Assembly (NCBI GenBank): GCA_964243435.1
Contig: CAXTFM010000002.1
Location: forward strand, 10,021 to 74,020
From: an uncultured Beijerinckiaceae bacterium
GTDB taxonomy: Bacteria; Pseudomonadota; Alphaproteobacteria; Rhizobiales; Beijerinckiaceae
Reading direction: 5' to 3'
Length of the DNA stretch: 64,000 nucleotides
The position numbers and the translations under genes were made by a program. Below are positions 36,682-59,656 of the stretch, piece after piece. The notes beneath the pieces were generated by a model. It saw nothing but the letters and a program-made list of their open reading frames with translations. It did not search any database and had not been told where the DNA came from. Positions within the stretch are counted from its first letter, which is position 1. Each line of letters begins with the position of its first letter.

Positions 36682-37275
36682 TCAGCCTTTGTAGACGCCT
36701 TCGGTCGGCAGGACGTCCTTGATGTAGTCGCGCCCCTTCCATTCCGGCACGGGCGGGGTGACGCCGGGGCGCGGCGGATTGGGGGAGCGCCGGTCATGGA
36801 CGAGGTCGGGCATGTAGCGCGGGCAGTTCGAGAAGATCTCGCATTCCACCCGCACCACCAGCTTGGCGCCGTGGTGCGCGGCGACCACGTCGGGGTCGTC
36901 GAGGATCGTCGCGCGTCCGTTCGCGCGAATGCGCCTGCCGCCGTCGAAGGGCGCGAAGAGCAGCCCGACATTGGGGTTCTTGGCGATGTTGCCGAGGCTG
37001 CGGAACATCAGGTTGCCGTCGTACTCCGGATATTCGAGCGTGCCCGGCCCGACGATGCGGATGAAGCCGGGATCGCCCGACTTCACGCTGCAATCGACGT
37101 AGTCCGCGTGGCTCGTCGCCAGGAAGAAGAAGCGAGCTTGCGCGATCCACGTCCGTTCCTCGTCCCAGAAGGCGTCGTGCTTGCGATGCTCGTCCAAGCG
37201 ATCGGCCACGTCCCGGCCGCCGAAGCGGTCCTGCAGGTCGCGCATGCCGTCGTGGTAGAAGGCGCGTGCCTCCAT
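36682..37275 (-). CDS. Pyridoxamine 5'-phosphate oxidase-like FMN-binding protein
   Basis: FFFLAT, DCSVKSGDPGF, YDGNLMFRSLGNI..NPNVGLLF, NCPRY. Confidence 0.85.
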   Translation of the reverse strand: MEARAFYHDGMRDLQDRFGGRDVADRLDEHRKHDAFWDEERTWIAQARFFFLATSHADYVDCSVKSGDPGFIRIVGPGTLEYPEYDGNLMFRSLGNIAKNPNVGLLFAPFDGGRRIRANGRATILDDPDVVAAHHGAKLVVRVECEIFSNCPRYMPDLVHDRRSPNPPRPGVTPPVPEWKGRDYIKDVLPTEGVYKG

Positions 37276-37288
37276 CGTTGCCCTCCGG

Positions 37289-37984: not shown

Positions 37985-37997
37985 GCGTGGTCCTCCG

Positions 37998-38825: not shown

Positions 38826-38850
38826 GGCTTGGACTCCCGTTCGGTCGGCG

Positions 38851-40140: not shown

Positions 40141-40212
40141 GATGTTTCCTCGACCGCGTTGTTTCTCGTTGGTGCCGGGATGCCCGGCCGTTGCGTCACA
40201 TAAAGGCGCGTC

Positions 40213-41262: not shown

Positions 41263-42593
41263 GGATGAGACGCGATCGGGCGAGACGCGACGCGGCGCAC
41301 GGACCCGGGGTTGAGCTCGCCCAGGCGGTTGACGCCGGCGAGCGCCATGTCGCGGTCGATCTCCTCCTTGAGCAGGCGGATTGCCAGCGACACCGCCGGC
41401 ACGCCGCCGATCGCGGCGGCGAAGATGAAGGGCCTCCCCAGCATCACGAAGTCGGCGCCAAGCGCGAGCGCCTTCAACACATCCGTGCCGCGGCGGATGC
41501 CGCTGTCGACGATCACTTTCAGGTCGCCCTTCTCGGCGGCGATCTCCGGCAGCACGTCGAGCGGCGCCACGGCGTAGTCGAGCTGGCGCCCGCCGTGTGT
41601 CGAAAGGATCACGCCGTCGGCGCCGCACTCGCGGGCGGTGGCGACGTCTGCCGGGTTGAGCAGGCCCTTGACGACGAGGTTGCCCTGCCAGCGCTTGCGG
41701 ATCGCCCGGAGGTTCGCCCACGACAGCTGGTCGCGCGCCGTGGTGTTGCGCAGCGAGTTCTGCGACATCATCGGTGGGCCGCGATGGGCCTCCATGTTCT
41801 CGAAGTGCGGCGCCCCGTGCTTGAGAAAGGTGCGGGCCACCACGCCGAGGAGCCAGCGCGGGTGAGTCGCGCTCTGCCACGCCACCTTGGGCGTGATGCG
41901 GATGGGCATGGAGAACCCGCTGCGAGTGTTGTGCTCGCGGTTGCCGAGCATGGGCGTGTCCGCGGTGACGACGAAGGTGCGGTAGCCGGCGGCGGCGACG
42001 CGGTCGACAAGCGGGTCGATGCGGTTCTGGTCGCCGGGCAGGTAGGCCTGGTACCAGGCGTCGGGGTTCTGCGCGTGGACGTCCTCCAGTTTGATGAGCG
42101 AGGAGGCGCTGAGGCACATGGGGATCTCGGCCTGGCGCGCGGCCTCGGCCAGCACGAGGTCGCCGCGGTAGGCGATGAAGGCCGAACCGCCGAGCGGGCC
42201 GATGCCGAAGGGCGCGGCAAAGGTCTGGCCGAACAGCTCCGTGCGCGCCGTGCGCGCCGAGGTGTCCACCATGGCGTTGGGCAGGAAAGCGTAGTTGGCG
42301 TAGGCCTCGCGGCTTTGCCGCAGCGCGGCGCCGGTTTCCACGCTGCCGGCGACGTACTGGTAGATCATGTGCGGCAGCAGGCGCTTGGCATGGCGCTCGA
42401 AGTCGTCGAGGGCGAGGAGGTCGCGGAAGTGGTAGGGCGTGACCGCCGCGCTGCGCTTGACGCTGGCCGCCACCGCCTGCGGCGCGGCGATGCCGGCGGC
42501 GCCGCGGTCGGCATCCTCGACCGTCGCCGCGCGCGCCTCGTCCTCGGCTCGCCCGTCGCCGTCCCGGGCCGTCCGTCGGTCGAGCGTTTCCAT
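41259..42593 (-). CDS. FMN-dependent alpha-hydroxy-acid dehydrogenase/oxidase (LldD/glycolate oxidase family)
   Basis: PFGIGP.G, WYQAY, VTAD, LVVKG, STHGGRQLD, DSGIRRGTDVLKALALGA. Confidence 0.92.
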   Translation of the reverse strand: METLDRRTARDGDGRAEDEARAATVEDADRGAAGIAAPQAVAASVKRSAAVTPYHFRDLLALDDFERHAKRLLPHMIYQYVAGSVETGAALRQSREAYANYAFLPNAMVDTSARTARTELFGQTFAAPFGIGPLGGSAFIAYRGDLVLAEAARQAEIPMCLSASSLIKLEDVHAQNPDAWYQAYLPGDQNRIDPLVDRVAAAGYRTFVVTADTPMLGNREHNTRSGFSMPIRITPKVAWQSATHPRWLLGVVARTFLKHGAPHFENMEAHRGPPMMSQNSLRNTTARDQLSWANLRAIRKRWQGNLVVKGLLNPADVATARECGADGVILSTHGGRQLDYAVAPLDVLPEIAAEKGDLKVIVDSGIRRGTDVLKALALGADFVMLGRPFIFAAAIGGVPAVSLAIRLLKEEIDRDMALAGVNRLGELNPGSVRRVASRPIASHP

Positions 42594-42711
42594 GCAAACC
42601 TCCCTCGGACGCGCCCTCTATGCGCCGCAACGCGCGCTGACGCCAGTCGTTCGCGCCCCTGCCGTCCGGCACGCCTTGCCGCACCGCGCCCGCTTGTCCA
42701 TGTGCGGTGGC

Positions 42712-43410
42712 ATGAGCGCACCCCGCATCGTCCTCCTCCACGCCACGCCCGTCGCCATGCCGCCGGTCGCGGCGGCCTTCGCCGCGCTGTGGCGTGAGGC
42801 GGAGGTGGTCAACCTGCTCGACGACGGCCTGACCATCGACCGGGCGCGCGAGGATGCGATCTCGGAGGGGTTGATCGACCGCTTCGTCGCCCTCGGCCGC
42901 TATGCCCGGCTGATCGGGGCGGACGGCATCCTCGTGACCTGCTCGGCCTTCGGGCCGGCCATCGACCGCCTCGCCGACGCCGTGCCGGTGCCGGTGCTGA
43001 AGCCCAACGAGGCGATGTTCAAGGCGGCGCTCGCCCAAGGCTCGTCGACCGGCTGCGACCGCATCGGCATGCTGGCGACCTTCGCGCCCTCCGTGTCCAC
43101 CATGACGGAGGAGTTCGACGCCTTCGTCGCCGCCGATGGCACCAGGACGGACGGGAGCCGGGCGACGCTGACCACGATCGTGGTGGACGACGCCATCGAC
43201 CTGCTGCGCCGCGGCGACGTCGACAGCCACAACCGCCTCGTCGCCGCGCGGGCGCCCGAGTTCGCCGGCTATGACGCGATCATGCTGGCGCATTTCTCGA
43301 CCTCGCGCGCCGCCGCCGCCGTGCGCGCGGCGGTGGACGTGCCGGTGCTGACCGCGCCGGAGGCGGCGGTGACGGCGATGCGCGGCCTCGTCGGGGCCGG
43401 GCGGGCATGA
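42712..43410 (+). CDS. Asp/Glu/hydantoin racemase-fold protein
   Basis: NLLDDGL, ILVTCSAFG, VLKPNEAM, IGMLATF, LAHFS, VPVLTAP. Confidence 0.78.
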   Translation: MSAPRIVLLHATPVAMPPVAAAFAALWREAEVVNLLDDGLTIDRAREDAISEGLIDRFVALGRYARLIGADGILVTCSAFGPAIDRLADAVPVPVLKPNEAMFKAALAQGSSTGCDRIGMLATFAPSVSTMTEEFDAFVAADGTRTDGSRATLTTIVVDDAIDLLRRGDVDSHNRLVAARAPEFAGYDAIMLAHFSTSRAAAAVRAAVDVPVLTAPEAAVTAMRGLVGAGRA

Positions 43411-44039
43411 GCGCCGAAGCGCGACTTCGCGAGGACATGGCGCGGCTCGCCAAGTCGCTGTTCGACCGCGGCTTCTCCGTCGGCTCCGCCGGCAACATCA
43501 GCGCCCGCGTCGTTGACGGCCTCCTGATGACGCCGACTAACGCTTGCCTCGGCTTCCTCGACCCCGCCCGCATCAGCAAGCTCGACGGCGGCGGCCACCA
43601 CATGTCCGGCGACAAGCCGTCCAAGGAGGTGTCGCTGCACCGCGCGCTCTACGAAACTCGTCCCGACACCGGCGCGGTGGTCCACCTCCATTCCACCTAC
43701 GCCACGGCGCTGTCGTGCCTCGCCGACACCGACCCGGAAAACTGCGTCCCTCCGCTCACACCCTACGTAGTGATGCGCGTCGGGCGCGTCGCGCTGGTGC
43801 CGTACTTCCGTCCGGGGGACGCGAAGGGCGGCGACCTCGTCCGCGCGCTCGGCGGGCGCCATGCCGCGGTGCTGCTCGCAAATCACGGCAGCCTCGTCGC
43901 AGGCCGCGAGCTTGCCGCCACCGTGTACGCGGCGGAGGAACTGGAGGAAACCGCCAAGCTCCTCGTCACCCTGCGCGGCGCGAAGCTGCGCATGCTCGGC
44001 GAGGGCGACGTCGCCGAACTGCGCGCCGCCTTCGGCTGA
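43407..44039 (+). CDS. otnC: 3-oxo-tetronate 4-phosphate decarboxylase-like class II aldolase
   Basis: KSLFDRG..GSAGNIS, TPTNACLGFLDPARISK, SGDKPSKE..LH, VHLHST, PPLTPY.VMRVG, ANHG, EELEETAKL. Confidence 0.82.
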   Translation: MSAEARLREDMARLAKSLFDRGFSVGSAGNISARVVDGLLMTPTNACLGFLDPARISKLDGGGHHMSGDKPSKEVSLHRALYETRPDTGAVVHLHSTYATALSCLADTDPENCVPPLTPYVVMRVGRVALVPYFRPGDAKGGDLVRALGGRHAAVLLANHGSLVAGRELAATVYAAEELEETAKLLVTLRGAKLRMLGEGDVAELRAAFG

Positions 44040-44058
44040 CCATCCGCCACCGGAACCC

Positions 44059-44856
44059 ATGCCCATGCACCTTGGCGCCTTCGCCGACCGCCTCAGCGCC
44101 CATATCGGCTTCCTGTTCACGGAGCTGCCGCTGCCCGAGCGCCCGGCGGCGGCGGCGCGCGCCGGCTTCCGCGCGCTGGAGCATCCCAACCTCTTCGCCC
44201 ACCCCGCGCGGGTGGTCTCCGGCTGGTTCCGCGACGCCGGCCTTCCCCTCGTGCAGACCGGTTTCCCCGCCGGCGACGCGGCGCGCGGCGAGAAGGGCTT
44301 CGCCGCCCTGCCGGAGCGCTGCGCGGAATTCCGCGCCGGCGTCGAGCCGACGCTGGACTACGTCGCCGAACTCGGTTGCCGCATGGTCCATGCGATGGCC
44401 GGGGTGAAGCCCGCCGGCGTGGAATGGGCGCGGCTATGGGACACCTACCTCGACAGCATCGCCTACGCCGCCGATGCCGCGGCCAAGCGCGGCATGACGA
44501 TCATCATCGAGCCGATCGGGCCGGGCTCCATCGCGAACTACGTCATCGACCAGCCGGCGCTCGCCGTCGACGCCATCCGCGCGCTCGGCCGTCCCAACGT
44601 CGCGCTGCTGTTCGACGCCTATCATTGCGCCTGCCTCGGCCACGACCCTGCGGCTCTGATCCGCGCGCACGCCGCCCTGATCGCCCACGTGCAGATCGCC
44701 GACGACCCCGGCCGCCACGAGCCTGGCACGGGGACGATCGCCTTCGCGCCGATCTTCCAGGCGCTGGACGAGGTGGGCTATGCCGGCCCGGTTGGGTGCG
44801 AGTACCATCCGCTGGAGGGGACGGCGGCGGGGCTCGGCTGGATGCGCGCCGGTTGA
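44059..44856 (+). CDS. Hydroxypyruvate/2-oxo-tetronate isomerase family (Hyi/OtnI)
   Basis: FLFTELP..ER.AAA..AGF, GEKGFAA, HAMAG, IEPI, FDAYH, HVQIAD.PGRHEPGTG, GCEY.P. Confidence 0.88.
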   Translation: MPMHLGAFADRLSAHIGFLFTELPLPERPAAAARAGFRALEHPNLFAHPARVVSGWFRDAGLPLVQTGFPAGDAARGEKGFAALPERCAEFRAGVEPTLDYVAELGCRMVHAMAGVKPAGVEWARLWDTYLDSIAYAADAAAKRGMTIIIEPIGPGSIANYVIDQPALAVDAIRALGRPNVALLFDAYHCACLGHDPAALIRAHAALIAHVQIADDPGRHEPGTGTIAFAPIFQALDEVGYAGPVGCEYHPLEGTAAGLGWMRAG

Positions 44857-48087: not shown

Positions 48088-48507
48088 TTAGCGCAGCAGG
48101 CCGAGCGACAGGGCGGGGATGAGGGTGTCCGCAGTCGCCGTCGCGACGCCCGTCGTCCCAGCCAAAACCGTGCCCGGTACGGTCGCGGCGGCGCCGATGA
48201 CCCCGGTGGCCCCGGTCACAACCGCGCCGGGAATTGCCAGCAGCGAGCCCAGGATCGGGATGCCACCAACGGAGTCGGGGTAGGAATAAACCACCGGCGT
48301 GCCGTACTTGCGGTAGAAGTAATAACCGCAGCCCTTCTTGGTCGTGCACTTGTAGTACACGGGCACCACAGCGGCCGGCTGGCCGTTCAGCGTCGTGTAA
48401 ACGGTGGCAGTGGCCGGCGGCGCGGCAGCGGCACCTGTTGCCATTGGCACGGCGGACGCGGCCACCGCGAGCCCGACCAGCGAAGCAAGTTTCAGAATGT
48501 TCTTCAT
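48088..48507 (-). CDS. Putative secreted hypothetical protein
   Basis: Signal-like MKNILKLASLVGLAVAASA, Tyr-rich core with C-x5-C, Gly/Ala/Val/Thr-rich tail; GGGGAG RBS. Confidence 0.7.
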   Translation of the reverse strand: MKNILKLASLVGLAVAASAVPMATGAAAAPPATATVYTTLNGQPAAVVPVYYKCTTKKGCGYYFYRKYGTPVVYSYPDSVGGIPILGSLLAIPGAVVTGATGVIGAAATVPGTVLAGTTGVATATADTLIPALSLGLLR

Positions 48508-48668
48508 GGAAGTACTCCCCGTGTGTGACGATTTCCCAAACATCGTCACAGCCTAAAAACGGCTGCCACTCTCCTTAGTTCAGCTCGGCCCCGAAGCCGA
48601 ACACATTTTTGCGAGGTTTCGGCCACAGTCGTGAGCTTTCTGCAACAGTGTCTGAATATAGCGGTCCC

Positions 48669-49787
48669 TCACTCCATTACGGGAGCGACCTTCTTCACGT
48701 CGGCCGCCATCTCGCCGAGCCATTTGGCGTTCTTGGCCGTGCCATCGAAGGTTTCGCTGATCTTGAAAAGCTCGTACTTGCCATCGATCGCGAAGGGTCG
48801 GCTGCGCCCGAGCAACTCGGCCACCTGCGCCTTGTCCATGGGCTTGAAGCTGCGCACCGCTTCGAAGGCCTGATCCATGTCGCGCTGGCTTTCCATGCCG
48901 GTGATAACCACGGAGGTCGGCAGGTTCAACGAGTAGTGCAGCATCTCGATCGGCGTGATCGGCGCGTTGGCCTTGAGCAGCACGCTGTCGCCGAAGGTCT
49001 TCATCCCGAGCACGGCGATGCCGTGGGCGGCGAGGTAGGGCAGCACGAGGTGGGCGAAGGAGCGGAAATGCGCGTCCATCACGTTGAGCGGCATTTGGCA
49101 GGAATCGAACTGGAAGCCGCGCTCCTCCGCGACGTGCAGCATCTGCTGGTGGATGCGCGGGTCCTTGTGGCCGGTGAAGCCGATGTGGCGCAGCTTGCCG
49201 GCCGCCTTCGCCTCGACGAAGGCCTCCATGGCGCCGCCTTCGGCGAAGACGCGGTCGGGATCCTCGAAGCGCAGGATCTCGTGATGCTGCACGAGGTCGA
49301 TGCGGTCGGTGCGCAGGCGCTTCAAGGAGGTGTCGATCTGCTGCGCCGCCTCCTTCTTGGTGCGCCCGTCCATCTTGGACATCAGGAACACCTTGTCGCG
49401 GTAGCCGCCCTGTTCCAGCGCGACCCCCATGCGGAGTTCGGAGCGGCCGTCGTTGTAGTCCCAGCAGTTGTCCATGAAGGTGATGCCGCGATCGATCCCC
49501 TGATGGATCAGGCGCGCGGCGTCGGCGTCGCTGAGTGCGTTCTTGCCGATGTGGAAACCGCCCATGCCGATGGCGGAGATCATCTCCTGCGTGCGCCCGA
49601 AACGGCGGTACAGCATGTCGCCGCGGCGCTCGCCGGGGTCGGTGACGAAGGGCAGATCGGCGGGGTCGGCCGGACGCATCTGCGGCAGTGCGGGGACGTT
49701 CACGGGCGTGCCCCCCGTCGCGGCCTGCGCGGCCGTCGCACCGACGGCGGCGAGGCCGACACCCTGGATGAAGCTGCGGCGTTCCAT
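48669..49787 (-). CDS. Tat-signal aldo/keto reductase family protein
   Basis: MERRSFIQGVGLAAVGATAAQA twin-arginine signal; IGMGG.H, FMDNCWDY, FLMSK, DRIDLVQHH, RHIGFTGH, QMPLN, LGMK. AAAAGGA RBS. Confidence 0.9.
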   Translation of the reverse strand: MERRSFIQGVGLAAVGATAAQAATGGTPVNVPALPQMRPADPADLPFVTDPGERRGDMLYRRFGRTQEMISAIGMGGFHIGKNALSDADAARLIHQGIDRGITFMDNCWDYNDGRSELRMGVALEQGGYRDKVFLMSKMDGRTKKEAAQQIDTSLKRLRTDRIDLVQHHEILRFEDPDRVFAEGGAMEAFVEAKAAGKLRHIGFTGHKDPRIHQQMLHVAEERGFQFDSCQMPLNVMDAHFRSFAHLVLPYLAAHGIAVLGMKTFGDSVLLKANAPITPIEMLHYSLNLPTSVVITGMESQRDMDQAFEAVRSFKPMDKAQVAELLGRSRPFAIDGKYELFKISETFDGTAKNAKWLGEMAADVKKVAPVME

Positions 49788-49845
49788 GTCGATCCTTTTG
49801 CGGAATGGCGGTGCGGGTGGCCGGCGCGGCCGTAATGGGGCGATG

Positions 49846-50574
49846 TCACGAGGCGGCTCCTTCCCTGCGCGCGAGGTGCTCGGCGGCCCGCAGCAGGCGG
49901 AGCGCCGCGCAGGCCGCCCCGTAGCCATTGTCGATGTTGACCACCGCCAGGCCCGGCGCGCAGCTCGCGAGCATGGCGTCGAGCGCGGCGCGCCCGCCCG
50001 CCGCGACACCGTAGCCCACCGAGGTGGGCACGGCGACGATGGCGCCACCGACGAGACCGCCGACCACGCTCGGCAGCGCCGCGTCCATGCCGGCGGCGAC
50101 GATCACGACCGGGTGGGCGCGGATGTCGTCGAGGCGGCGGGTGAGGCGCCACAGCCCCGCGACGCCGACATCCACGATCAGCGTGGCGGCCTCGCCGTGG
50201 TAGGCCAGGGTGCGGGCAGCCTCGCGCGCCACGCCGGCGTCCGAGGTGCCGGCGCAGACCACGGCGACGCGCCCGCGCCCGGTCACCGCGCGGGGGGTGC
50301 CGAACACGGCCGTCCGCGAGGTGGCGCAGTAGTCGATGCGGTCGCGGTGGCGCGGCGCCAGCGCGGCGAGCTTGTCGGCGTCGAGCCGCGTCACGAGCAG
50401 CGCCGCGCCGCGCGCCTCCGCCGCGGCAAGGATGGCGTCGAGCTGCACGGCCGTCTTGCCGGCGGCGAAGACCGCCTCCTCCAGCCCGATGCGCTCCTCG
50501 CGGGCGAAGTCGAGCACGAACTCGTCGACGGTCCCGTCGCCGGCACCACCGCCGTCGCCCGGGCGCACGCTCAC
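49846..50574 (-). CDS. larB: Nickel-pincer cofactor biosynthesis carboxylase/hydrolase LarB
   Basis: LDFAREERIG..EAVF..GKT, AGTSD..VA.EA, DVGVAGLWRL, AGMDAALPSVVGG, VPTSVGYG, ASCAPG..VVNIDNGYGAA. Confidence 0.93.
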   Translation of the reverse strand: MSVRPGDGGGAGDGTVDEFVLDFAREERIGLEEAVFAAGKTAVQLDAILAAAEARGAALLVTRLDADKLAALAPRHRDRIDYCATSRTAVFGTPRAVTGRGRVAVVCAGTSDAGVAREAARTLAYHGEAATLIVDVGVAGLWRLTRRLDDIRAHPVVIVAAGMDAALPSVVGGLVGGAIVAVPTSVGYGVAAGGRAALDAMLASCAPGLAVVNIDNGYGAACAALRLLRAAEHLARREGAAS

Positions 50575-51425
50575 GCCGGCACCGCCGTCGCCGTGAGGAA
50601 GGCGCTTCCGGTGCGGTAGGGCGCGAAGCGGACGCCGCGCGCCGCCAGCGCCGCCGGCGCGTGGCCGCCGATGGCGACGGCGAGCCGCGCCCGCTCGTCG
50701 GGGCCGAGCGCGGCGAGACCCGCGGGGTCGAGCTCTACCACGATGCCGGCGGCGCGCACGCGGCAGCGCACGGCGCGCGCGGCGCCCTGCACCGGTGCGA
50801 GCCGCGCGCCGACCAGTTCTTCCACCGCGTGAACGAAGCGCAGCGTGTCGGCCTCGATGCGGATGCCGGTCTCGACACGGCTTGACAGGCAGGGTGCGGC
50901 CGGCAGCTCGGCCACTTCGCCAAGGCCGAGACGGCGCGCCAGCGCGCGCACCGCCGCCTTGTCCATGCCGGCCTCGACATAGGGGTGGCGCACCCCGTGG
51001 TCCCGCGCCGCGTCGAGGCCGGGGCGGTACTCGCCGAGGTCGTCGAGGTTGGCGCCGGACAGGATCGGCCGATCGGTGACGGCGGCGACCGCGCCGTACA
51101 GGTTGGTCTTGCAGAAGAAGCAGCGGTTGACCGGATTTGCACGGTAGCGCGGATCGGCGAATTCGCCCGCCGCGATCACGCGCAACGCCCAGCCCTCGGC
51201 CACCGCCTGCGCCTCGACGCGGCGCGTCGCCTCCGTCGGCACGGCGGGGGAGGCGGCATGTACGGCGAGCATGGCGCCTGCGCCCAGCACGCGATGGGCG
51301 GCGGCGGCCAGGGTCAGGCTGTCGACGCCGCCGCTGACCGCGACCGCCACGGCGCCCATCGGTGCGAGCACGGCGCCGAGGCGGTCGAGGCTTTGCAAGG
51401 CGTCGCCGACCAATGCGTCACTCAT
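50571..51425 (-). CDS. larE: ATP-dependent sulfur insertase LarE
   Basis: PP-loop SGGVDS, NPVNRCFFCK, GANLDDL.EYRPG, K.AVR.LAR, PAAPCLSSR; 4-nt overlaps with larB and larC. Confidence 0.92.
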   Translation of the reverse strand: MSDALVGDALQSLDRLGAVLAPMGAVAVAVSGGVDSLTLAAAAHRVLGAGAMLAVHAASPAVPTEATRRVEAQAVAEGWALRVIAAGEFADPRYRANPVNRCFFCKTNLYGAVAAVTDRPILSGANLDDLGEYRPGLDAARDHGVRHPYVEAGMDKAAVRALARRLGLGEVAELPAAPCLSSRVETGIRIEADTLRFVHAVEELVGARLAPVQGAARAVRCRVRAAGIVVELDPAGLAALGPDERARLAVAIGGHAPAALAARGVRFAPYRTGSAFLTATAVPA

Positions 51426-52732
51426 GGCGCGCCATCGCTTTCGAGCGCCAAACGTTCCGCCTCGCGCCGCAGCGTCGCACGGGCGGCGTGCCCTTCATGG
51501 GCGAGGGCGTCGTCGGCCTCGGCCTTGGCGGTGCGCCCGCCCGGCCGCTCCACCGTCTTCACCCGCACCGCGCGCCCGTCCACCTCCACCGTGGCGAGCC
51601 GGCGGGGCAGGGCGCTTCCCGCCACCGCATGGTGGCGCAGACCGATGGTGGTGGTTTCGCGAAAGCACGCCGCCACCGCCGCGTCGCGGGCATCGGCGCG
51701 GGCGAGCGCGCGCACATGCGTCATCATCCGCCCCTTCTTGCCGAACACGGGGCTTTGCACGACGTCGAAAAGGTCGGGATGGGCGCGCAGCCGGTCGAGC
51801 CCCATCGCGAGGTCCTCGGCGGACTGGTCGTCCACCTCGAACTCGATCACGAGGAGTTCGCGATGGGGAGAGGGTGACGCCGCATCGGCCCGAGGCCCGG
51901 TCTCATCGGGCGTCGTCTCGTCGAACGCCAGGACGCGCAGGCAGTTGCTGAGGCCGGGCAGGGTACGGGTGCCGAAGCCGATGCCGGAGCGGCCGAGCAC
52001 GCGCGCTCGGGGCACGCGCCGCGCCCCACCACCGTCGCAGAGGTGCTTGAGGATCGCGGCGCCGGTTGGCGTGACGCGCTCGCCGTCGATCCCATCGTCG
52101 ATCACGGCGAAACCTTGGAGCAGCAGCGCGGTGGCCGGCGCCGGCACGGGCAGGGGACCATGGGCCGTGCGCACCCGGCCGCCGCCGAGCGGCAACGCCG
52201 CGATGCTCCAACTTGCCGCGCCGAGCGCGGCGATCAGGGTCGCGGCGGCGACGATGTCGGCGATCGAGTCCCAGGCGCCGACCTCGTGAAAGCTCACCGC
52301 CTCGACATCGATGCCGTGAACCGCCGCTTCGGCGCGGGCGAGCTGGGTGAAGATCGCGACCGCGTGGTCGCGGACGGTCGGGTCGAGGCCGGAGCCGTCG
52401 AGGTCCGCCCTGATCCGCGACCAGTGCCGGTGCCCGTGCGCCGCGCGGTGGGCGTGCGGGTCATGACCATGCGGGCCATGATCGTGCGGAGTATAATCGT
52501 GCGGACCATGATCGTGGGTGTGTCCATGGTGCTCCGTCGCGTCGCGCAACTCGACGACGAAGCGCCGGCCCTGGAGCACGCCGTCATTGTGCGGCAGCAG
52601 TCGACAGCGCACCGGGGCGAGCGCGGCGACCGCGTCGAGCACGCGCCCCTCGTGCTGCGGGAAAGCGTCGAGCAGGGCGGCCACGAACATGTCGCCGGCG
52701 ACGCCGCCGATCGCGTCGAGCTGGATGTGCAT
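51422..52732 (-). CDS. larC: Nickel insertase (cyclometallase) LarC
   Basis: GGVAGDM, His-rich tract, LARAEAAVHG, FHEVGAWDSIADIV, HGPLPVPAPAT, ERVTPTGAA, EVDDQS.E, GKKGR, ETTTIGLR, KAEADD. Confidence 0.94.
   Translation of the reverse strand: MHIQLDAIGGVAGDMFVAALLDAFPQHEGRVLDAVAALAPVRCRLLPHNDGVLQGRRFVVELRDATEHHGHTHDHGPHDYTPHDHGPHGHDPHAHRAAHGHRHWSRIRADLDGSGLDPTVRDHAVAIFTQLARAEAAVHGIDVEAVSFHEVGAWDSIADIVAAATLIAALGAASWSIAALPLGGGRVRTAHGPLPVPAPATALLLQGFAVIDDGIDGERVTPTGAAILKHLCDGGGARRVPRARVLGRSGIGFGTRTLPGLSNCLRVLAFDETTPDETGPRADAASPSPHRELLVIEFEVDDQSAEDLAMGLDRLRAHPDLFDVVQSPVFGKKGRMMTHVRALARADARDAAVAACFRETTTIGLRHHAVAGSALPRRLATVEVDGRAVRVKTVERPGGRTAKAEADDALAHEGHAARATLRREAERLALESDGAP
52457..52516 (-). 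repeat. Four imperfect 15-bp tandem repeats encoding the LarC His-rich tract
   Basis: Plus-strand units cgggtcatgaccatg / cgggccatgatcgtg / cggagtataatcgtg / cggaccatgatcgtg, encoding HDHGP-HDYTP-HDHGP-HGHDP. Confidence 0.8.
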
Positions 52733-52878
52733 CGGTTCGAAAACGACTCCTGCGGCCAAGCCGGCGGCCCACGCGGAGTGCAACATACACCGATCGGGTC
52801 GTTGCCGTCCGGCGGACAGCAGCTACAGTTCGGCGCGCCCGCCTGCCCCGTCCGGGGCGGCCCGTCGTGAGCCCATCG

Positions 52879-55800
52879 ATGCACCTTCGCCACCCCAGCC
52901 GGTCAGTTTGGCAACGGATCGCGCGAGCCGCCGCCGCACTGCTGCCGTTGCTCCTCGCGTCCTGGCCCGCCCGTGCCATCGACTACCTCAACGTGACGGT
53001 GCAGCCGGACCGTGCCGTGCCCGCCGCCTGCCTGTCCTTCACGGTGCCGCTGCCGCGCGGACGGGCGCTCGACCCCTACCTCGCCATCGCGCCGGCGCTG
53101 GACCATTCGCTGGATGCCCGCGGCAAGGACCTTTGCATCGGCGGCCTCAGGCATGGCGGACGCTATGCCGTACGGATCAAGGCCGGCCTGCCCGGCGCCG
53201 ACGGCAGCGCCCTGCCAAAGGACGTCGCGGTGGACGTGCAAATCCCCGACCGCGACCCGCAGGTGAGCTTCGACAAGGGCAAGACGCTGCTGCCGCTCAC
53301 CCCCGGCGTCGGCTTGCCGCTGAAAAGCGTGAACGTGACCAAGGCGCATGTCGCGCTGTACCGCCTGGGCGAGCGGGCGCTGGCCGACCGCGTGGGTGAG
53401 GACTGGTTCGGCCAGGCGCTCGGCAGCTACGGCCTCGACCAGATGGCCGAGCGGGCGACCAAGCTGTTCGAAGGCTCGCTCGATATCGCCGCGGTGCGCA
53501 ACCGGCAGGTCTCGACGACCATCCCGATCGAGGCGCTGGTCAAGACGCTGCAGCCCGGCATCTACGTCGCGGTGGCGACGAGCGACGCGCAAAAGGGCGA
53601 CCGCGACGCCGACAAGGCCACGCAATGGTTCAGCGTTTCCGACATCGGCCTCACCGCGGTGAAGACCGATGCGGCGACGCTGGTCGTCGCGCGGTCGCTG
53701 CAAACCGCCGTGCCGCTCCCCGGCATCGCGGTGCGCCTCGTTTCGCGGGCCAACGAGGTGCTGTCCGCCACCCGCACCGACGCGGACGGCCGCGTCACCA
53801 TCCCCGGCGCGGTGCTGCGCGGCGAACACGGCGATGCGCCGAAGCTCCTCACGGCGAGCGACGAGCACGGCAGCTTCACCTCCCTCCAGATGGACGCGCC
53901 GGCCCTCGACCTGTCCGACCTCGACGGCAAGGGCAGGACGCCGCCGCGCGCCAACGACGCCTTCGTGTGGACCGACCGCGGCGTGTACCGCCCCGGCGAA
54001 ACCGTCCACCTCGGCGTCCTGTTGCGCGACCGCGACGCCCACGCCGTCGCCGGCGTCCCGCTCACGCTGCACATCGTGCGGCCGGACGGCATCGAGGTCG
54101 ACAAGCGCCAGATCGCCCTGACGAGCGCCGGCGGCGGGACGCTCGACGTACCCCTCGCCGACAACGCCTTTTCCGGCGCGTGGCGGTTTTGGGCCAGCGC
54201 CGGCGATGCGACGGATGTCGGCGAGGTGTCGGTGTCCGTGCAGGACTTCGTGCCGCCGCGCCTTGATGTCGGGCTGACCGCCGGCGCGCCCGACCCCGAC
54301 GGCGCGGTCCCCGTCGACATCGCGGCCGACTACTTCTACGGCAGTCCCGGCGCCGACCTGTCGGGGACGCTCGAAGCCACGCTGGAGGCGGCGGGTGCGC
54401 CCTTCCCCGGTCTGGCCGGATACAGCTTCGGCCTTGCGCAGGAGCCGTTCCTCGCCAAGGCGCTGAAGAGCGAGGCGTTCGCAACCGACGACAACGGCCG
54501 CGCCCACCTCGACCTCAAGCCTGACGCGGTGCCGGATACCACCGTGCCGCTCGCCCTGACGCTGCGCGCCACCGTCAACGACGTCGACGGCCGCCCGGCG
54601 GTCGCCACCGCGACGCGCGCGCTGCACACCGCCGACCGCTTCATCGGCCTGCGTCCCGGCTTCACCAGCCTGTCGGACGGCGGTGCGGCGGCGTTCGACG
54701 TGGCGCTCGTCGACGGCGACGGCCGTCCGCTCGGCCGCCAGGGCCTCAAGTGGGACCTCGTCAGGGAGGACTACAGCTACAACTACTTCTACCGCGACGG
54801 ACGCTGGCAGTCGCACGAGACGGTCACCGACGCCCGCACCAACGGCGGCGAGGTCGCGCTCGACGCCGACGGCAGGACGAGGATCACGGCCACCGTTGGC
54901 AACGGCCGCTGGCGACTCGACTGCTACGACGCCTCCGGCACCGCGGCGACAAGCATGCGCTTCGGTGCCGGCTGGTGGGCGACGAGCGAAGCGGAGGGGC
55001 GCAAGCCCGAGGTGATGCCGGTGTCGATCGACGCGCACCCGCCGGCGGGCAAGGTGCGCGCCATGGTCGAGCCGTCCTTCGCCGGGCGCGTGCTCGTCAT
55101 GCTCGACGGCAACGGGTTGCACGGGGTGCGCGAGGTCGCGATGGCCAAGGGCGGCGGCGCGGTGGAGTTCGACGCAGCCGACGTGCCGCCCGCCGGCGCC
55201 TACGTGCTGGCGCTCGCCGTGTCGCCGGCCGGCGCCGTGGTGCCGCGCCTGCCGGTGCGCGCGGTGGGCCTCGCCTTCGTGCCGGGCAGCGCCGCCGCGC
55301 GCCGGCTCGACGTGTCGCTCGCCGCGGCGGACACGATCCGGCCGCAGACGGCGCTCGCCGTCGACGTCGCCGTGCGCGGCGCGGCGGCGGGGGAAGAGGC
55401 CTACGTGACGCTTGCCGCCGTGGACGAGGCGGTGCTGCGCATGACCAACTTCGCCGCGCCCGATCCGGCCGAGCACTTCTTCGGCCGGCGCGCGGCCGAC
55501 GTCGAGCTGCGCGACGTGTACAACCAGCTCATCGATCCGGCCGGCACGCCGGGACGCCTCGTCGAGGGCGGCGACGGCAACGCCAACCTCAACCTTGGCG
55601 CCCTTGACGTGAAGACCTTCAAGACCGTCGCCCTGTTCAAGGGCCCGGTGCGGCTCGACGCCGACGGCCGCGCCCGGGTCACGCTCGATCTGCCCGACTT
55701 TTCCGGGCGGCTGCGTTTGATGGCGGTGGCCTGGACGCTTGATCGCTTCGGCGGTGCCGAGCGTCCGCTCACCGTGCGCCCGCCGCTGCTCGCCGAACTG

Positions 55801-57618
55801 ACCCTGCCGCGCTTCCTGGCGCCCGGCGACAGGGTGCGCGCCCGCATCATGCTGACCGACCTCGACGCGCCGGAGGGTACCTACACCGTTGCAATCACCG
55901 CCAGCGGTGCCGTGGCGCTCGACAGGCAGGACGCGCTGTTCAAGGACGTCGAGCGCAACAAGCGTCGCTACGTCGACCGCTGGTTGACCGCCGCCGCGGT
56001 GCCCGGGGTCGGGCGTCTTCACATGGTGGTGACGGGCGCCGACGGCGCGACGACCGAGCGCGATTTCGCCCTCACCGTGCGCACGCCGAACGCCTATCTC
56101 ACGCGGCGGCAGATCGTCACCCTGGCGCCGGGCGCCAGGATCGCCCTCGATGACGCCCTCGCCCAGGACCTCGTGCCCGGCACGGCGACGCTCGACGTCA
56201 CGGCATCCAGCGTGCCGGCGCTCGACGTCGCCGGCCTGCTCGCGGACTTGCGCCGCTACCCCTACGGCTGCGCCGAGCAGACGATCAGCCGGGCCTTTCC
56301 CGAACTGTTCGCCGCCCGGCTCGGCGCGGCGCTGCCCGCCCCGACCGCCGACGCGGTGACGGGGCAGGGCGCGATCGCCCGGCTCGCCTCCCTGCAGGCC
56401 GACGACGGCTCGTTCGGCCTGTGGTCGGCCTTCGATCGCGGCAACTTCTGGCTCACCGCCTACGCCGTCGACTTCTTCCAGCACGCGCGCGCCGCGGGGA
56501 TCAACGTGCCCGACGCGATGGAAACGCGGGCGACGACGTGGCTCGCGGCAAGATTCGCCAACGCCCAGCTCGACGCCCGCGACGTCGCCGGCGCCACCTA
56601 CGCCTCCATCGTTCTGTCGCGCGCCGGCCGCCTCGACCTGTCGCAGCTCCGCTACGTGGCGGAGCGGGTACGCGGCGCCCTGCCGAGCGACCTCGCCCGG
56701 GTGCAACTCGCCTCCGCCCTGACCCGCACCGGCGAGCGCGACCTCGCCGCCGGCTTGCTCAAGGCGTCGGTCGTCGCGCGCGACCCCCGCGCCTGGTTCA
56801 ACGACTACGGCAGCCGGCTGCGCGATCAGGCGATGACCCTGTCGCTGATGGCGGAAGAAAAGCTCGTGCCGCGCACGGTGCTGGTCGAACGCGCGCTCGA
56901 CCTGTCGCGGGCGACCGGCGGCCGGCAATATCTGTCGACGCAGGAGCAGGCATGGCTGCTTCGCGCCGCCTTCGACCTGTCCGCGACGGCGCCGCTTGAC
57001 GTCGCGCTCGACGGCCGCCGCAACGCGCCGGGCGAGACGAGCCTGCACGCCACGGTGGCGCTGGGCAAGGGGCGGTCGGCGTCGCTGGCCAACGAGGGGC
57101 GCGAGCCGGCCTACGTGGCGCTGGCGACGACCGGCATCCCCGCCGGCGCGCAGCCGGCGGAGACCAACGGCTTCACGGTCGGCCGCGACACCTTCCACCT
57201 CGACGGCACGCCGGCGGACCTCGCCGACATCCACCAGAACGACGAGCTTGTGGTGGTCGTCACCGGAGCGATGACGGAGCCGTTCGAGCGCAAGGTGCTC
57301 GCCGTCGACATGCTCCCCGCCGGGCTGGAGCCGGAGCCGGTCGGCCTCGCCACCTCGCGCGACGACGGCCAGTTCAAGTGGCTGACGGAGCTGACCGCGC
57401 CGACCTTCGTCGCGCTGCGCGACGACCGCTACGTCGCCGGCCTCGACCTCGATGCCGCGTCGGCGCGGGTCAAGGTCGCCTACGTCGTGCGCGCCGTCAG
57501 CGTCGGCACCTTCGCCAATCCGGGACCGCAGATCGAGGACATGTACGCGCCGAGTTACCACGCCCGCGGGGCGGCCGGCACGCTGGAGGTCAAGCCGGCA
57601 CGGCTGCCGCCGCCGTGA
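52879..57618 (+). CDS. Bacterial alpha-2-macroglobulin (YfhM-like)
   Basis: SVSDIGL, TDRGVYRPGETV, VQDFVPPR, AAVDE, LPDFSGRLRLMAVAW, PRFLAPGD, thioester YPYGCAEQ, DMLPAGLE, EDMY.P. Start 52867 or 52879. Confidence 0.95.
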   Translation: MHLRHPSRSVWQRIARAAAALLPLLLASWPARAIDYLNVTVQPDRAVPAACLSFTVPLPRGRALDPYLAIAPALDHSLDARGKDLCIGGLRHGGRYAVRIKAGLPGADGSALPKDVAVDVQIPDRDPQVSFDKGKTLLPLTPGVGLPLKSVNVTKAHVALYRLGERALADRVGEDWFGQALGSYGLDQMAERATKLFEGSLDIAAVRNRQVSTTIPIEALVKTLQPGIYVAVATSDAQKGDRDADKATQWFSVSDIGLTAVKTDAATLVVARSLQTAVPLPGIAVRLVSRANEVLSATRTDADGRVTIPGAVLRGEHGDAPKLLTASDEHGSFTSLQMDAPALDLSDLDGKGRTPPRANDAFVWTDRGVYRPGETVHLGVLLRDRDAHAVAGVPLTLHIVRPDGIEVDKRQIALTSAGGGTLDVPLADNAFSGAWRFWASAGDATDVGEVSVSVQDFVPPRLDVGLTAGAPDPDGAVPVDIAADYFYGSPGADLSGTLEATLEAAGAPFPGLAGYSFGLAQEPFLAKALKSEAFATDDNGRAHLDLKPDAVPDTTVPLALTLRATVNDVDGRPAVATATRALHTADRFIGLRPGFTSLSDGGAAAFDVALVDGDGRPLGRQGLKWDLVREDYSYNYFYRDGRWQSHETVTDARTNGGEVALDADGRTRITATVGNGRWRLDCYDASGTAATSMRFGAGWWATSEAEGRKPEVMPVSIDAHPPAGKVRAMVEPSFAGRVLVMLDGNGLHGVREVAMAKGGGAVEFDAADVPPAGAYVLALAVSPAGAVVPRLPVRAVGLAFVPGSAAARRLDVSLAAADTIRPQTALAVDVAVRGAAAGEEAYVTLAAVDEAVLRMTNFAAPDPAEHFFGRRAADVELRDVYNQLIDPAGTPGRLVEGGDGNANLNLGALDVKTFKTVALFKGPVRLDADGRARVTLDLPDFSGRLRLMAVAWTLDRFGGAERPLTVRPPLLAELTLPRFLAPGDRVRARIMLTDLDAPEGTYTVAITASGAVALDRQDALFKDVERNKRRYVDRWLTAAAVPGVGRLHMVVTGADGATTERDFALTVRTPNAYLTRRQIVTLAPGARIALDDALAQDLVPGTATLDVTASSVPALDVAGLLADLRRYPYGCAEQTISRAFPELFAARLGAALPAPTADAVTGQGAIARLASLQADDGSFGLWSAFDRGNFWLTAYAVDFFQHARAAGINVPDAMETRATTWLAARFANAQLDARDVAGATYASIVLSRAGRLDLSQLRYVAERVRGALPSDLARVQLASALTRTGERDLAAGLLKASVVARDPRAWFNDYGSRLRDQAMTLSLMAEEKLVPRTVLVERALDLSRATGGRQYLSTQEQAWLLRAAFDLSATAPLDVALDGRRNAPGETSLHATVALGKGRSASLANEGREPAYVALATTGIPAGAQPAETNGFTVGRDTFHLDGTPADLADIHQNDELVVVVTGAMTEPFERKVLAVDMLPAGLEPEPVGLATSRDDGQFKWLTELTAPTFVALRDDRYVAGLDLDAASARVKVAYVVRAVSVGTFANPGPQIEDMYAPSYHARGAAGTLEVKPARLPPP

Positions 57619-57643
57619 GCGTCGCTTGGCCGGCGCGGCGGCG

Positions 57644-59656
57644 ATGAGGCGGCGTCTCCTCGGCCTTGGCGTCGCGGTCTCCTGCGCAGGCTTGGCGGGC
57701 GTGGCCGTCGACCAGCTCTGCCCGCCCGACCTGTCGCGGCTCCGGCCCTCGCCCGTCCTTCTCGACCGGCACGGCGCGATCCTGCGCGCCCTGCGCACCG
57801 GTGACGGGCAATGGCGCCTACCCGTCGAGCCGGCCGCGGTGTCGCCGAACTACCTCCGCCTGCTCGTCGCGACGGAGGACAAGCGCTTCCGCTGGCATCC
57901 CGGCATCGACCCCCTGGCCTTGTTGCGCGCCGCAGGCCAACTCGTCACGCGGGGGCGCATCGTGTCGGGGGGCTCGACGCTGACCATGCAGCTCGTCCGC
58001 CTGCTCGAGCCGCGCCCGCGCACCTTGCGCTCCAAGCTGATCGAGTGCTTCCGTGCCATCCAGCTCGAGGGCCGGATGGGCAAGGACGCGATCCTGCGCG
58101 CCTACCTCGTCCTGACGCCGATGGGTGGCAACCTCGAAGGCGTGCGCGCCGGTTCGCTTGCCTGGTTCGGCAAGGAGCCGCGCGCGCTCAGCGACGCCGA
58201 GGCGGCGCTGCTCGTGGCCCTGCCGCAGGCGCCCCGCGCGAACCGGCCCGACCGCCATCCCGACCGTGCGAGGGCGGTGCGCGACCGGGTGCTCGCCCGC
58301 GCCGCCGGCCCCGAGGCGGACCGGGCGGCGCCGGTGCCGGCGCGGCGCCTGCCCCTGCCGTTCCTCGCGCCCCACCTCGCCGACAGGCTGCTCACCCGGC
58401 GTTCCGACGATGCCCCCGCGACGACGACGATCGATGCCCGCACGCAGGCAGCGATCGAGCGCACCCTGCGGCGCAGCCTCGACGGGCTGCCGCGCCCGCT
58501 CAACGTCGCGGCGCTCGTCGCCGATTGGCACACCGGCGAGATCCTGGCGCGGGCCGGGAGCGGCGACTACGCCGACGCGGCGCGGCGCGGCGGCATCGAC
58601 ATGACGATGGCGCTGCGCTCGCCCGGCTCGACGCTGAAGCCGTTCATCTACGGCATGGGGTTCGATGCCCTGCTCGCCCATCCCGACAGCCTCGTGCCGG
58701 ACGAGCCGACGCGGTTCGACGACTACGCGCCCCGCGACTTCGACGGCGGCTTCCACGGCGACACCACCGTGCGCCGTGCCCTCCACGCATCCTTGAACCT
58801 GCCGGCGGTGGTGATGTTGCGGCGGCTCGGCCCCGTGCGCTTCGCCGCCCGGTTCCGCGCGGCCGGGTTGCCGCTCGCCTTCGACGACGCCACGGCGGCG
58901 CCGAGCCTGCCCCTCGCGCTCGGCGGCGTCGGGATCAGCCTGGAGGGTCTGGTGACCGCCTACGCCGCCCTCGCCGACGGCGGCACCGCGCGACCGCTCG
59001 TCGAGCGCACCGGCGTGCCGCGCCCGCCCGTGACCGGCCGGCTGCTCGGCCGGCCCGCGGCGGATGCGGTGGTGGACATCCTCGCCGGCATGCCTCCGCC
59101 CGCCGGGCTGGCTTCGCGGGCCGGGCGCCTCGCCTTCAAGACGGGCACGTCCTACCGCTTCCGCGACGGCTGGGCGGTCGGCTTCGACGGCGCCCGTGTC
59201 GTCGGCACCTGGATCGGCCGCGCCGACGGGGGCACCTGCCGCGCCTGCGTCGGCTCAGGCGCGGCAGGCCTGCTGTTCCGCCTGTTCGACGACATGGCGC
59301 CGCAACCACTGCCCCCGCGAACGCTGACGCCCTTCTTCGCCGCCCCGCCGCCGCCGGCGCTCGCCAGGGTGGCCTCGTCCGACCCGGCGGGCGCCATGCT
59401 CGGGCCGCGCATCGCCTTCCCGCTCGCCGGCGCGCGCCTTCTGGTGGATGCCGCGGCACCCGACATCGCCTTAAGCGTCACGGGCGGGCGCCGCCCCTAT
59501 CGCTGGACGGTCGACGGGCATCCTCTCGACGGCCGGCCCTTCGCCCGCGACGCCTCATGGCGCCCGGACGGTCCCGGCTTCTCGACGATCAGCGTCAGTG
59601 ACGCGGACGGCCGCACCGACCAGATCAAGGTTCGCGTCAGCCAGGGTGAGCACTAG
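57644..59656 (+). CDS. pbpC: Penicillin-binding protein 1C
   Basis: TG motifs EDKRF..HPGID and GGSTLTMQL; TP motifs STLK, SLN, KTGTS; C-terminal beta domain; conserved pairing with alpha-2-macroglobulin. Confidence 0.93.
   Translation: MRRRLLGLGVAVSCAGLAGVAVDQLCPPDLSRLRPSPVLLDRHGAILRALRTGDGQWRLPVEPAAVSPNYLRLLVATEDKRFRWHPGIDPLALLRAAGQLVTRGRIVSGGSTLTMQLVRLLEPRPRTLRSKLIECFRAIQLEGRMGKDAILRAYLVLTPMGGNLEGVRAGSLAWFGKEPRALSDAEAALLVALPQAPRANRPDRHPDRARAVRDRVLARAAGPEADRAAPVPARRLPLPFLAPHLADRLLTRRSDDAPATTTIDARTQAAIERTLRRSLDGLPRPLNVAALVADWHTGEILARAGSGDYADAARRGGIDMTMALRSPGSTLKPFIYGMGFDALLAHPDSLVPDEPTRFDDYAPRDFDGGFHGDTTVRRALHASLNLPAVVMLRRLGPVRFAARFRAAGLPLAFDDATAAPSLPLALGGVGISLEGLVTAYAALADGGTARPLVERTGVPRPPVTGRLLGRPAADAVVDILAGMPPPAGLASRAGRLAFKTGTSYRFRDGWAVGFDGARVVGTWIGRADGGTCRACVGSGAAGLLFRLFDDMAPQPLPPRTLTPFFAAPPPPALARVASSDPAGAMLGPRIAFPLAGARLLVDAAAPDIALSVTGGRRPYRWTVDGHPLDGRPFARDASWRPDGPGFSTISVSDADGRTDQIKVRVSQGEH

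What the first reader, a model, noticed from the sequence alone, without database searches (positions are those of the whole stretch)
48669..52732. larC-larE-larB nickel-pincer cofactor operon without larA, ending in a Tat-exported aldo-keto reductase: candidate periplasmic NPN-dependent enzyme
Seen: larC, larE and larB overlap by 4 nt each. The next co-oriented gene, 58 nt downstream, is an AKR-fold protein with a twin-arginine signal (RRSFI) and an intact-looking D/Y/K/H tetrad. No LarA-family racemase is recognisable in the window. Established: LarB/E/C make the NPN cofactor from nicotinic acid adenine dinucleotide, classically for LarA racemases/epimerases. Tat exports folded, cofactor-loaded proteins, and the periplasm has no free NAD(P)H pool. 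Inference: the AKR is the NPN client, binding the pyridinium pincer in its nicotinamide pocket and doing cofactor-retaining hydride transfer (isomerisation, epimerisation or disproportionation of sugars/aldehydes) outside the cytoplasm. I have an unverified recollection that AKR-type NPN hydride transferases were reported recently, so novelty needs a literature check.
Basis: partly seen in the sequence, partly recalled or inferred. Interest (0 to 1): 0.88.

Follow-up and report, generated by a model that had tools for sequence, protein, structure and literature searches.

The report
Exported nickel-pincer aldo-keto reductase operon
Three genes that build a nickel-containing cofactor sit in a row with a reductase-like gene that carries that cofactor's two anchoring residues and an export-type signal, so it likely encodes a nickel enzyme of a family first described in 2026 that would, unlike the described member, work outside the cytoplasm.

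Summary
Observation confirmed: larC-larE-larB (4-nt overlaps) then, 58 nt on, an aldo-keto reductase (AKR) with a twin-arginine leader; no LarA found in the 89%-complete genome. The core inference is already in print: NphT (Semersky et al., Nat Chem 2026, PMC13524815; PDB 9YEB) is a nickel-pincer (NPMN) AKR and the top PDB sequence hit. This protein keeps NphT's Ni-ligand His (H207), tethering Lys (K263) and tetrad, but not its W218/Y219 loop. Linkage is tight: in 151 genomes of the family, 12 carry larC; 8 have this AKR, the other 4 have LarA, none both. What the paper's main text does not mention is export: a Tat-type leader is kept in 63 of 85 clade proteins from fetched loci, across phyla. 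A Tat leader alone is not diagnostic: two other AKRs here have one without His/Lys. Best reading (0.55): a periplasmic, cofactor-tethered hydride shuttle, the nickel counterpart of GFOR/AAOR; substrate unknown. This scan has already reported the same kind on other DNA (e1-3945507, e1-7816115, e1-9850210, e1-9889778). New variant of a known kind; interest 0.45.

The parts
51422..52732 (-). larC, nickel insertase (LarC1+LarC2 in one chain, His-rich insert)
   Evidence: PF01969 E 1.6e-89; TIGR00299 and NF052512 over cut-off; coordinates
50571..51425 (-). larE, sulfur transferase (SGGVDS loop; CxxC plus a third Cys)
   Evidence: TIGR00268 242 vs 150 bits; motifs seen in the translation
49846..50574 (-). 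larB, NaAD carboxylase/hydrolase (GTG start)
   Evidence: NF033503 251 vs 175 bits; coordinates
48669..49787 (-). Aldo-keto reductase-fold protein, 372 aa, predicted nickel-pincer hydride transferase; tetrad D106/Y111/K138/H169, Ni ligand H207, tethering K263
   Evidence: PF00248; best PDB sequence hit 9YEB/NphT; TIM-barrel model pLDDT 81.5, AKR folds at Z 29.7, rmsd 3.1, 277 aligned
49722..49787 (-). Predicted twin-arginine signal peptide, residues 1-22 (RR-x-F-I, apolar stretch, A-Q-A)
   Evidence: Seen directly; TIGR01409 16.0 vs 16.7 bits, 8 of 11 homologues over cut-off; residues 1-36 at pLDDT under 50 in the model

Best explanation
larC, larE and larB encode the three enzymes that make the nickel-pincer cofactor, and the fourth gene encodes an aldo-keto reductase that likely tethers that cofactor through Lys263 and His207, is predicted to be exported folded by the Tat pathway, and would shuttle hydride between two organic substrates in the periplasm without NAD(P)H. 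Steps: (1) shown: gene identities, order and motifs. (2) Established: LarB, LarE and LarC turn NaAD into NPMN in the cytoplasm. (3) Inferred, about 0.9: NPMN is bound as in NphT, by a thioamide to K263 with Ni on H207. (4) Inferred, about 0.8: the holo-enzyme leaves via Tat and the leader is cut after A22. (5) Inferred, about 0.75: Y111 acts as acid/base; one aldose or aldehyde is oxidised (to lactone or acid) and a second is reduced (to polyol or alcohol), so no soluble cofactor or electron acceptor is needed. The substrate is unknown and probably not NphT's, since the substrate loop differs.
For: 9YEB (NphT) is the top PDB sequence hit: E 6.6e-26 vs 1.3e-13 for the next; profile 1.4e-37 vs 3.8e-22. 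NphT T142/H144/I199/K200/G248 align to T205/H207/M262/K263/G297 (paper numbering). H207 and K263 are kept in 120 of 120 closest homologues and in 149 of 149 near-full-length clade proteins down to about 36% identity; 0 of 12 other AKRs of this genome have them (one of the 12 is too short to reach the Lys column). 38 of 80 related loci hold larC, larE and larB within 8 kb. 50 of 50 tested clade-bearing genomes have larC, against 6 of 14 controls. Family sample of 151: AKR 8, larC 12, LarA 4; the 8 and the 4 split the 12 exactly. Phylum sample around a Nostoc genome: 21 of 21 AKR-positive genomes have larC, background 75 of 121. Tat-type leader in 63 of 85 locus proteins (4 of the 22 without are cut by contig ends), 17 of 26 proteins of the phylum sample, 19 of 37 distant representatives. 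TatC present. Precedent for Tat-exported bound-cofactor sugar dismutases: GFOR and AAOR (PMC4628093).
Against: NphT's W218/Y219, which bind NPMN and are called highly conserved in the paper, have no counterpart in the alignment, though that stretch aligns poorly. The leader is just under the TIGR01409 cut-off. 18 locus proteins with intact N-termini lack a leader, in at least two groups on the tree, so export is dispensable in relatives. Two other AKRs in this genome have Tat-like leaders without His/Lys. None of the 26 more distant loci has the three lar genes nearby, and 20 of the 50 tested genomes have a LarA match over the cut-off that could explain their larC. No conserved neighbour points to a substrate. 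Kin are not independent, so the counts overstate.
Confidence: 0.55

Rival explanations
1. It is a nickel-pincer AKR but works in the cytoplasm; the leader is weak or unused, so this is an ordinary member of the 2026 family.
For: Leader 16.0 vs 16.7 bits; 18 close relatives lack it; NphT itself has no leader (291-residue chain aligning from residue 4).
Against: RR-x-F-hydrophobic plus an apolar stretch is kept across Alphaproteobacteria, Acidobacteria, cyanobacteria and Verrucomicrobia while the rest of the leader varies freely; 8 of 11 homologues pass the cut-off; all 31 loci with this operon order have it.
Confidence: 0.12
2. It is an exported nickel-pincer dehydrogenase that passes electrons to a periplasmic or membrane acceptor (quinone, cytochrome, Fe-S protein), not a dismutase.
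For: Earlier scan notes describe Tat-exported His/Lys AKRs wired to Fe-S proteins (e1-3387687 and others; not tested here). The clade has a conserved C-terminal extension absent from NphT that could dock a partner.
Against: No Fe-S domain in this protein and no redox partner recurs beside it in the fetched loci; NphT needed no acceptor.
Confidence: 0.13
3. It is an exported nickel-pincer epimerase or isomerase that returns the hydride to the same molecule, as LarA does.
For: It takes LarA's place beside the lar genes in this family; the different substrate loop and extra C-terminal segment could close the site over one substrate (inference).
Against: The only tested AKR member did not racemise lactate and moved hydride between molecules; the AKR tetrad offers one acid/base.
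Confidence: 0.12
4. It is an NAD(P)(H) AKR exported with bound dinucleotide, and the lar genes serve some other, unseen client.
For: Tat-type AKRs without His/Lys exist in this genome; the assembly is 89% complete; GFOR and AAOR show a bound redox cofactor is enough for such chemistry outside the cytoplasm.
Against: Invariant His/Lys; it lacks the SPL motif found in 8 of 12 other AKRs here and the C-terminal IPG..N motif found in 5 of 12 (motif roles recalled); exact split with LarA in the family; the control Tat AKR occurs in 19 of 151 genomes, only 4 with larC; no LarA, PF04455 or DUF362 match in the genome.
Confidence: 0.06

Closest known systems
NphT, NPMN-dependent hydride transferase of Alicyclobacillus cellulosilyticus (PDB 9YEB; Semersky et al., Nat Chem 2026, PMC13524815), and its 798 His/Lys AKR homologues
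   Same: AKR barrel; next to larB/C/E without larA; tetrad; T142, Ni-ligand H144, tethering K200 and G248 all have counterparts.
   Different: Tat-type leader and about 35 further N-terminal residues; no W218/Y219 loop in the alignment; about 45-residue conserved C-terminal extension; Gram-negative host; no sugar genes conserved beside it. The paper's main text has no mention of Tat, signal peptide, periplasm, export or secretion.
Glucose-fructose oxidoreductase of Zymomonas mobilis and aldose-aldose oxidoreductase of Caulobacter crescentus (PMC4628093)
   Same: Tat signal, bound cofactor, redox-neutral production of a sugar acid and a polyol; GFOR is periplasmic. This is what the protein most likely works like.
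   Different: Gfo/Idh/MocA family, not AKR; the cofactor is non-covalently held NADP (recalled), not a lysine-tethered nickel pincer.
LarA lactate racemase and LarA homologues
   Same: Same cofactor pathway, Lys tether and His ligand; LarA sits beside the lar genes in the 4 larC-positive family genomes that lack this AKR.
   Different: Unrelated fold; intramolecular racemisation or epimerisation; no LarA match in this genome.
[quoted passage not shown]
   Same: Fold (Z 29.7, rmsd 3.1, 277 aligned to 7svq) and tetrad.
   Different: Has His/Lys where they do not; lacks the SPL and IPG..N motifs.

Membership tests
Nickel-pincer (His/Lys) AKR family of Semersky et al. 2026 | PF00248 TIM-barrel fold | tested here: met
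Nickel-pincer (His/Lys) AKR family of Semersky et al. 2026 | Adjacent to larB, larC, larE with no larA nearby | tested here: met
Nickel-pincer (His/Lys) AKR family of Semersky et al. 2026 | His and Lys at the positions of NphT H144 and K200 | tested here: met
   H207 and K263; 120 of 120 homologues; 0 of 12 other AKRs of the genome
Nickel-pincer (His/Lys) AKR family of Semersky et al. 2026 | Catalytic tetrad D47/Y52/K75/H106 | tested here: met
   D106, Y111, K138, H169
Nickel-pincer (His/Lys) AKR family of Semersky et al. 2026 | Cofactor cavity capped against the AMP moiety | tested here: inconclusive
Nickel-pincer (His/Lys) AKR family of Semersky et al. 2026 | Covalent +450 Da NPMN adduct and Ni content | not testable with these tools
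   Needs intact mass and ICP-MS
NphT in the narrow sense (sugar-disproportionating orthologues) | W218/Y219 cofactor and substrate loop | tested here: not met
   The profile has a gap opposite this loop and no Trp-Tyr pair; the alignment is weak there, and conserved F347, Y/F338, W356 of the C-terminal extension might substitute. Not filed as an NphT orthologue.
NphT in the narrow sense (sugar-disproportionating orthologues) | Disproportionation of ribose, arabinose, galactose | not testable with these tools
   Needs enzyme assay
Tat substrate | RR-x-F-hydrophobic motif, uncharged h-region, A-x-A site | tested here: met
   Seen directly; own pattern test
Tat substrate | Curated TIGR01409 cut-off | tested here: inconclusive
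   16.0 vs 16.7 bits for this protein; 8 of 11 homologues pass
Tat substrate | Tat machinery in the genome | tested here: met
   TatC E 9.2e-69; TatA and TatB not searched
Tat substrate | Periplasmic location dependent on RR and TatC | not testable with these tools
   Needs fractionation; no SignalP-type predictor was available
LarA racemase family | Lar_N and LarA_C domains | tested here: not met
   Only PF00248 matches the protein
GFOR/AAOR (Gfo/Idh/MocA) | Gfo/Idh/MocA domain | tested here: not met
   Only PF00248 matches; functional analogue only

The most novel reading that the evidence does not exclude
The first nickel-pincer enzyme that works outside the cytoplasm: these bacteria keep a three-enzyme nickel cofactor pathway for one client, a Tat-exported AKR that is a nickel version of GFOR/AAOR and trades hydride among sugars, polyols or aldehydes in the periplasm. 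The covalent pincer would be the device that lets NAD-like chemistry run where no NAD(P)H pool exists, and the leader would be ancestral to a clade spanning several phyla, with cytoplasmic forms arising by loss.
Probability: 0.55. Interest if true: 0.65.

Novelty: new variant of a known kind. Interest (0 to 1): 0.45.

Why it matters
The NphT paper leaves the physiological role of nickel-pincer AKRs open and its main text does not consider location. If this clade is exported, nickel-pincer chemistry extends to the periplasm, the cofactor must survive Tat transport and an aerobic compartment, and the search for the true substrate shifts to compounds met at the cell surface. The locus is a clean test case: a four-gene unit in culturable Methylobacterium and Lichenihabitans relatives where, in the sampled family genomes, the AKR is the only recognised client of the lar genes, with natural leader-less relatives as controls.

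Tried and rejected
Expression: no RNA holder was listed for 48400-52900; this says nothing either way. Promoter/terminator scan: no sigma-70 site and no minus-strand terminator-like site, at chance level; co-transcription rests on overlaps and conserved order only. Substrate from neighbours: clustering ORFs of 89 loci gave no recurring partner beyond larB/C/E; I had filtered out Arg-rich ORFs (1738 of 4631 kept), so some real genes were missed. The lactonase/sugar-acid cluster 7-13 kb downstream in the window did not recur in that clustering and was not used. Fold searches listed only canonical AKRs; 9YEB was not among the listed rows (library ends 8 April 2026), so they confirm the fold only. 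The idea that this clade explains cyanobacterial lar genes in general was rejected: 21 of 75 larC-positive genomes in that phylum sample have it. Other clients in the own genome: no match for PF09861, PF21113, PF04455, PF04015 (my choice of the last two is from recall); no HupE/UreJ nickel transporter match either; other Ni importers not searched. Literature searches for export: 'nickel pincer'+'periplasm' (3 papers), 'nickel-pincer'+'signal peptide' (1 listed), 'aldo-keto reductase'+'twin-arginine'+'periplasm' (3); by title and abstract start none concerns an exported pincer enzyme; I did not open them. Supplements of PMC13524815: 7 of 12 readable files searched, file 9 searched, first parts of files 3 and 4 read, with no relevant hit; files 10-12 were not searched, and the Supplementary PDF and large tables, which should hold the 427 and 798 lists, were too large to read, so this clade or its leaders may be listed there. 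No complex prediction was run.
Full report
1. Observation. LarB, LarE, LarC1 and LarC2 models all pass their curated cut-offs. The last gene is PF00248. The assembly (3.76 Mb, 249 contigs, 89.3% complete) has no match to Lar_N or LarA_C, while the controls ring. The closest named relatives are Beijerinckiaceae, Lichenihabitans, Methylobacterium and Acetobacteraceae genomes at 74-82% identity.

2. What the AKR is. The best PDB sequence hit is 9YEB (E 6.6e-26; next 1.3e-13). 9YEB is NphT, described in PMC13524815; I read parts 1-5 of 10 of its text (abstract to early methods) plus term searches. NphT tethers NPMN on K200, binds Ni with H144, and disproportionates ribose, arabinose and galactose to lactone plus polyol without NAD(P)(H); its physiological substrate is unknown. 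A 39-sequence profile of this clade aligns to 9YEB over 276 positions, E 1.4e-37. Chain numbers run 3 above the paper's (inferred from eight residue matches). The mapping is D47=D106, Y52=Y111, K75=K138, H106=H169, T142=T205, H144=H207, I199=M262, K200=K263, G248=G297. The W218/Y219 loop has no counterpart, in a weakly aligned stretch, and the clade has a conserved C-terminal extension instead. H207 and K263 are kept in 120 of 120 closest homologues and in all 149 near-full-length proteins kept: 85 from loci L001-L089, 26 of 27 loci of the phylum sample, the window protein, and 37 of 150 representatives (the other 113 were partial and dropped). None of the 12 other AKRs of the genome scored over the Pfam cut-off has the pair. 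The model is a TIM barrel (mean pLDDT 81.5; residues 1-36 under 50) and matches canonical AKR folds at Z up to 29.7, which shows the fold only.

3. Linkage to the cofactor genes. 38 of 80 related loci hold larC, larE and larB within up to 8 kb, 4 hold one, 38 none. Among the 54 loci at 70% identity or more, 31 have this operon order, 7 have all three genes in another arrangement (mostly divergent), 7 with long flanks lack the set (one of them has larC only), and 9 are too short; none of the 26 distant loci has the set nearby. At genome level, 50 of the 80 loci were tested (all 26 distant ones and 24 close ones that I chose): 50 of 50 have larC, against 6 of 14 control genomes; 20 of 50 have a LarA match over the cut-off, but of the 12 with this operon order 11 have none and one has a weak partial match. 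In an even sample of 151 genomes of the family, the AKR is in 8, larC in 12 and LarA in 4; the 8 and the 4 divide the 12 without overlap, and the 139 larC-negative genomes have neither. In those 4, larA lies next to larC (one confirmed as LarA-like). As a control, a Tat-type AKR of this genome without His/Lys is in 19 of the same 151, only 4 with larC. In a phylum sample around a Nostoc genome, 21 of 121 have the clade at E 1e-30 and all 21 are among the 75 with larC. Kin are not independent; the family sample has the AKR in only 3 genera.

4. The leader. It has RR-S-F-I, an uncharged Ala/Gly/Val stretch and A-Q-A at 20-22, and no Cys. It scores 16.0 bits on TIGR01409 (cut-off 16.7); 8 of 11 homologues pass. 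My own pattern test (RR motif plus apolar stretch; not SignalP) finds it in 63 of 85 locus proteins, 4 of the 22 negatives being cut by contig ends, in 17 of 26 proteins of the phylum sample and in 19 of 37 distant representatives, some of which are truncated; a simpler motif count gives 87 of 120. It is present in Acidobacteria, cyanobacteria, Verrucomicrobia and others. On a FastTree tree of the core, leader-less alphaproteobacterial proteins fall in two groups among leader-bearing ones, which suggests loss; the deepest split has almost no support and no clade test was run. TatC is in the genome. Against over-reading: the same test marks 2 of the 12 other AKRs of this genome, which lack His/Lys, so Tat plus AKR does not imply nickel.

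5. Mechanism. The cofactor pathway is established. Binding of NPMN is inferred from the His/Lys pair, the missing dinucleotide motifs (their roles are recalled) and the split with LarA. Export is inferred from the leader; that Tat carries folded, cofactor-loaded proteins and that the periplasm has no NAD(P)H pool is textbook knowledge, recalled. An exported enzyme with a tethered two-electron cofactor and no redox partner in its gene neighbourhood must reset itself on substrate, which is the chemistry shown for NphT and for the Tat-signalled GFOR and AAOR (PMC4628093; abstract, introduction and passages read). I put the whole chain at 0.55. Rivals: acceptor-linked dehydrogenase 0.13, cytoplasmic member 0.12, epimerase/isomerase 0.12, bound-NADP enzyme 0.06. 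The substrate cannot be named; polyols, aldoses or small aldehydes at lichen and leaf surfaces are a guess from the hosts' names.

6. Novelty. AKRs as nickel-pincer enzymes are known since June 2026, with 427 lar-adjacent cases and 798 His/Lys homologues claimed. This protein meets that family's testable features but not NphT's W218/Y219, so it is a family member and not an NphT orthologue. Export is absent from the paper's main text and from three literature searches (listings only); the unreadable supplements may bear on this. PMC11796402 (passages) notes that most cyanobacteria have lar genes without larA; this clade covers only 21 of 75 such genomes sampled. The scan has reported the same exported kind in other genomes and a divergent-arrangement relative; I looked these up after forming my reading, and they are not independent evidence.

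7. Verdict. Real, conserved, and well supported as a nickel-pincer AKR operon; the exported form is an untested but testable variant. Interest 0.45; 0.65 if export of the holo-enzyme is shown.

Noticed in passing
L117:266-1207 (+) and L118:417-1553 (-), other contigs of the own genome: Two further AKRs with Tat-like leaders but without the His/Lys pair; relatives of the first occur in 19 of 151 family genomes, 15 of them without larC. They look like exported AKRs with another cofactor solution, perhaps bound NADP.
   Followed up: partly
L006 and L044: Two clade members flank one larCEB set: a leader-less copy divergent from larC and a Tat-bearing copy (55-56% identical to the window protein) 1-3.5 kb beyond larB on the lar strand; possibly one cytoplasmic and one exported client.
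   Followed up: partly
G165:C1:3429434-3430371 (L085): In one same-genus genome the AKR match is split over two frames near residue 170: assembly error or broken gene, with larC intact.
   Followed up: no
L081-L084 (L083:7190-8509): One genus of the family has larA beside larC in place of the AKR; the tested copy is below every named LarA subfamily cut-off.
   Followed up: partly
L031, L032, L035 (L035:9166-9783): A HupE/UreJ-family gene (likely nickel uptake; role recalled) lies in these three loci, in L035 directly after the AKR; none found in the own genome.
   Followed up: partly
window 35654-44856: Sugar-acid-type cluster: 2-hydroxyacid dehydrogenase, solute-binding protein, NAD epimerase, MFS, lactonase (about 40213-41262), FMN dehydrogenase, Asp/Glu racemase-like, class II aldolase. 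A lactonase would suit lactone products, but the cluster did not recur beside homologues.
   Followed up: partly
window 48088-48507 (-): Short ORF downstream of the AKR with a hydrophobic N-terminus and a C-x4-G-C, Tyr-rich stretch; no Pfam or NCBIfam match and no tblastn match in 80 loci.
   Followed up: partly
window 52867-59656 (+): Bacterial alpha-2-macroglobulin followed by a PBP1C-type transglycosylase/transpeptidase, divergent from larC; a common pair (recalled), not linked to the AKR in the fetched loci.
   Followed up: no
window 50571-51425 (-): LarE has CFFC and a later PCLSSR Cys, the three-cysteine pattern recalled for [4Fe-4S]-type catalytic LarE rather than the sacrificial type.
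   Followed up: no
L090-L116 (phylum sample around G033): Some genomes hold 2-4 His/Lys AKRs, with and without leaders; 54 of 75 larC-positive genomes in the sample have none at E 1e-30, so other clients must serve them.
   Followed up: partly
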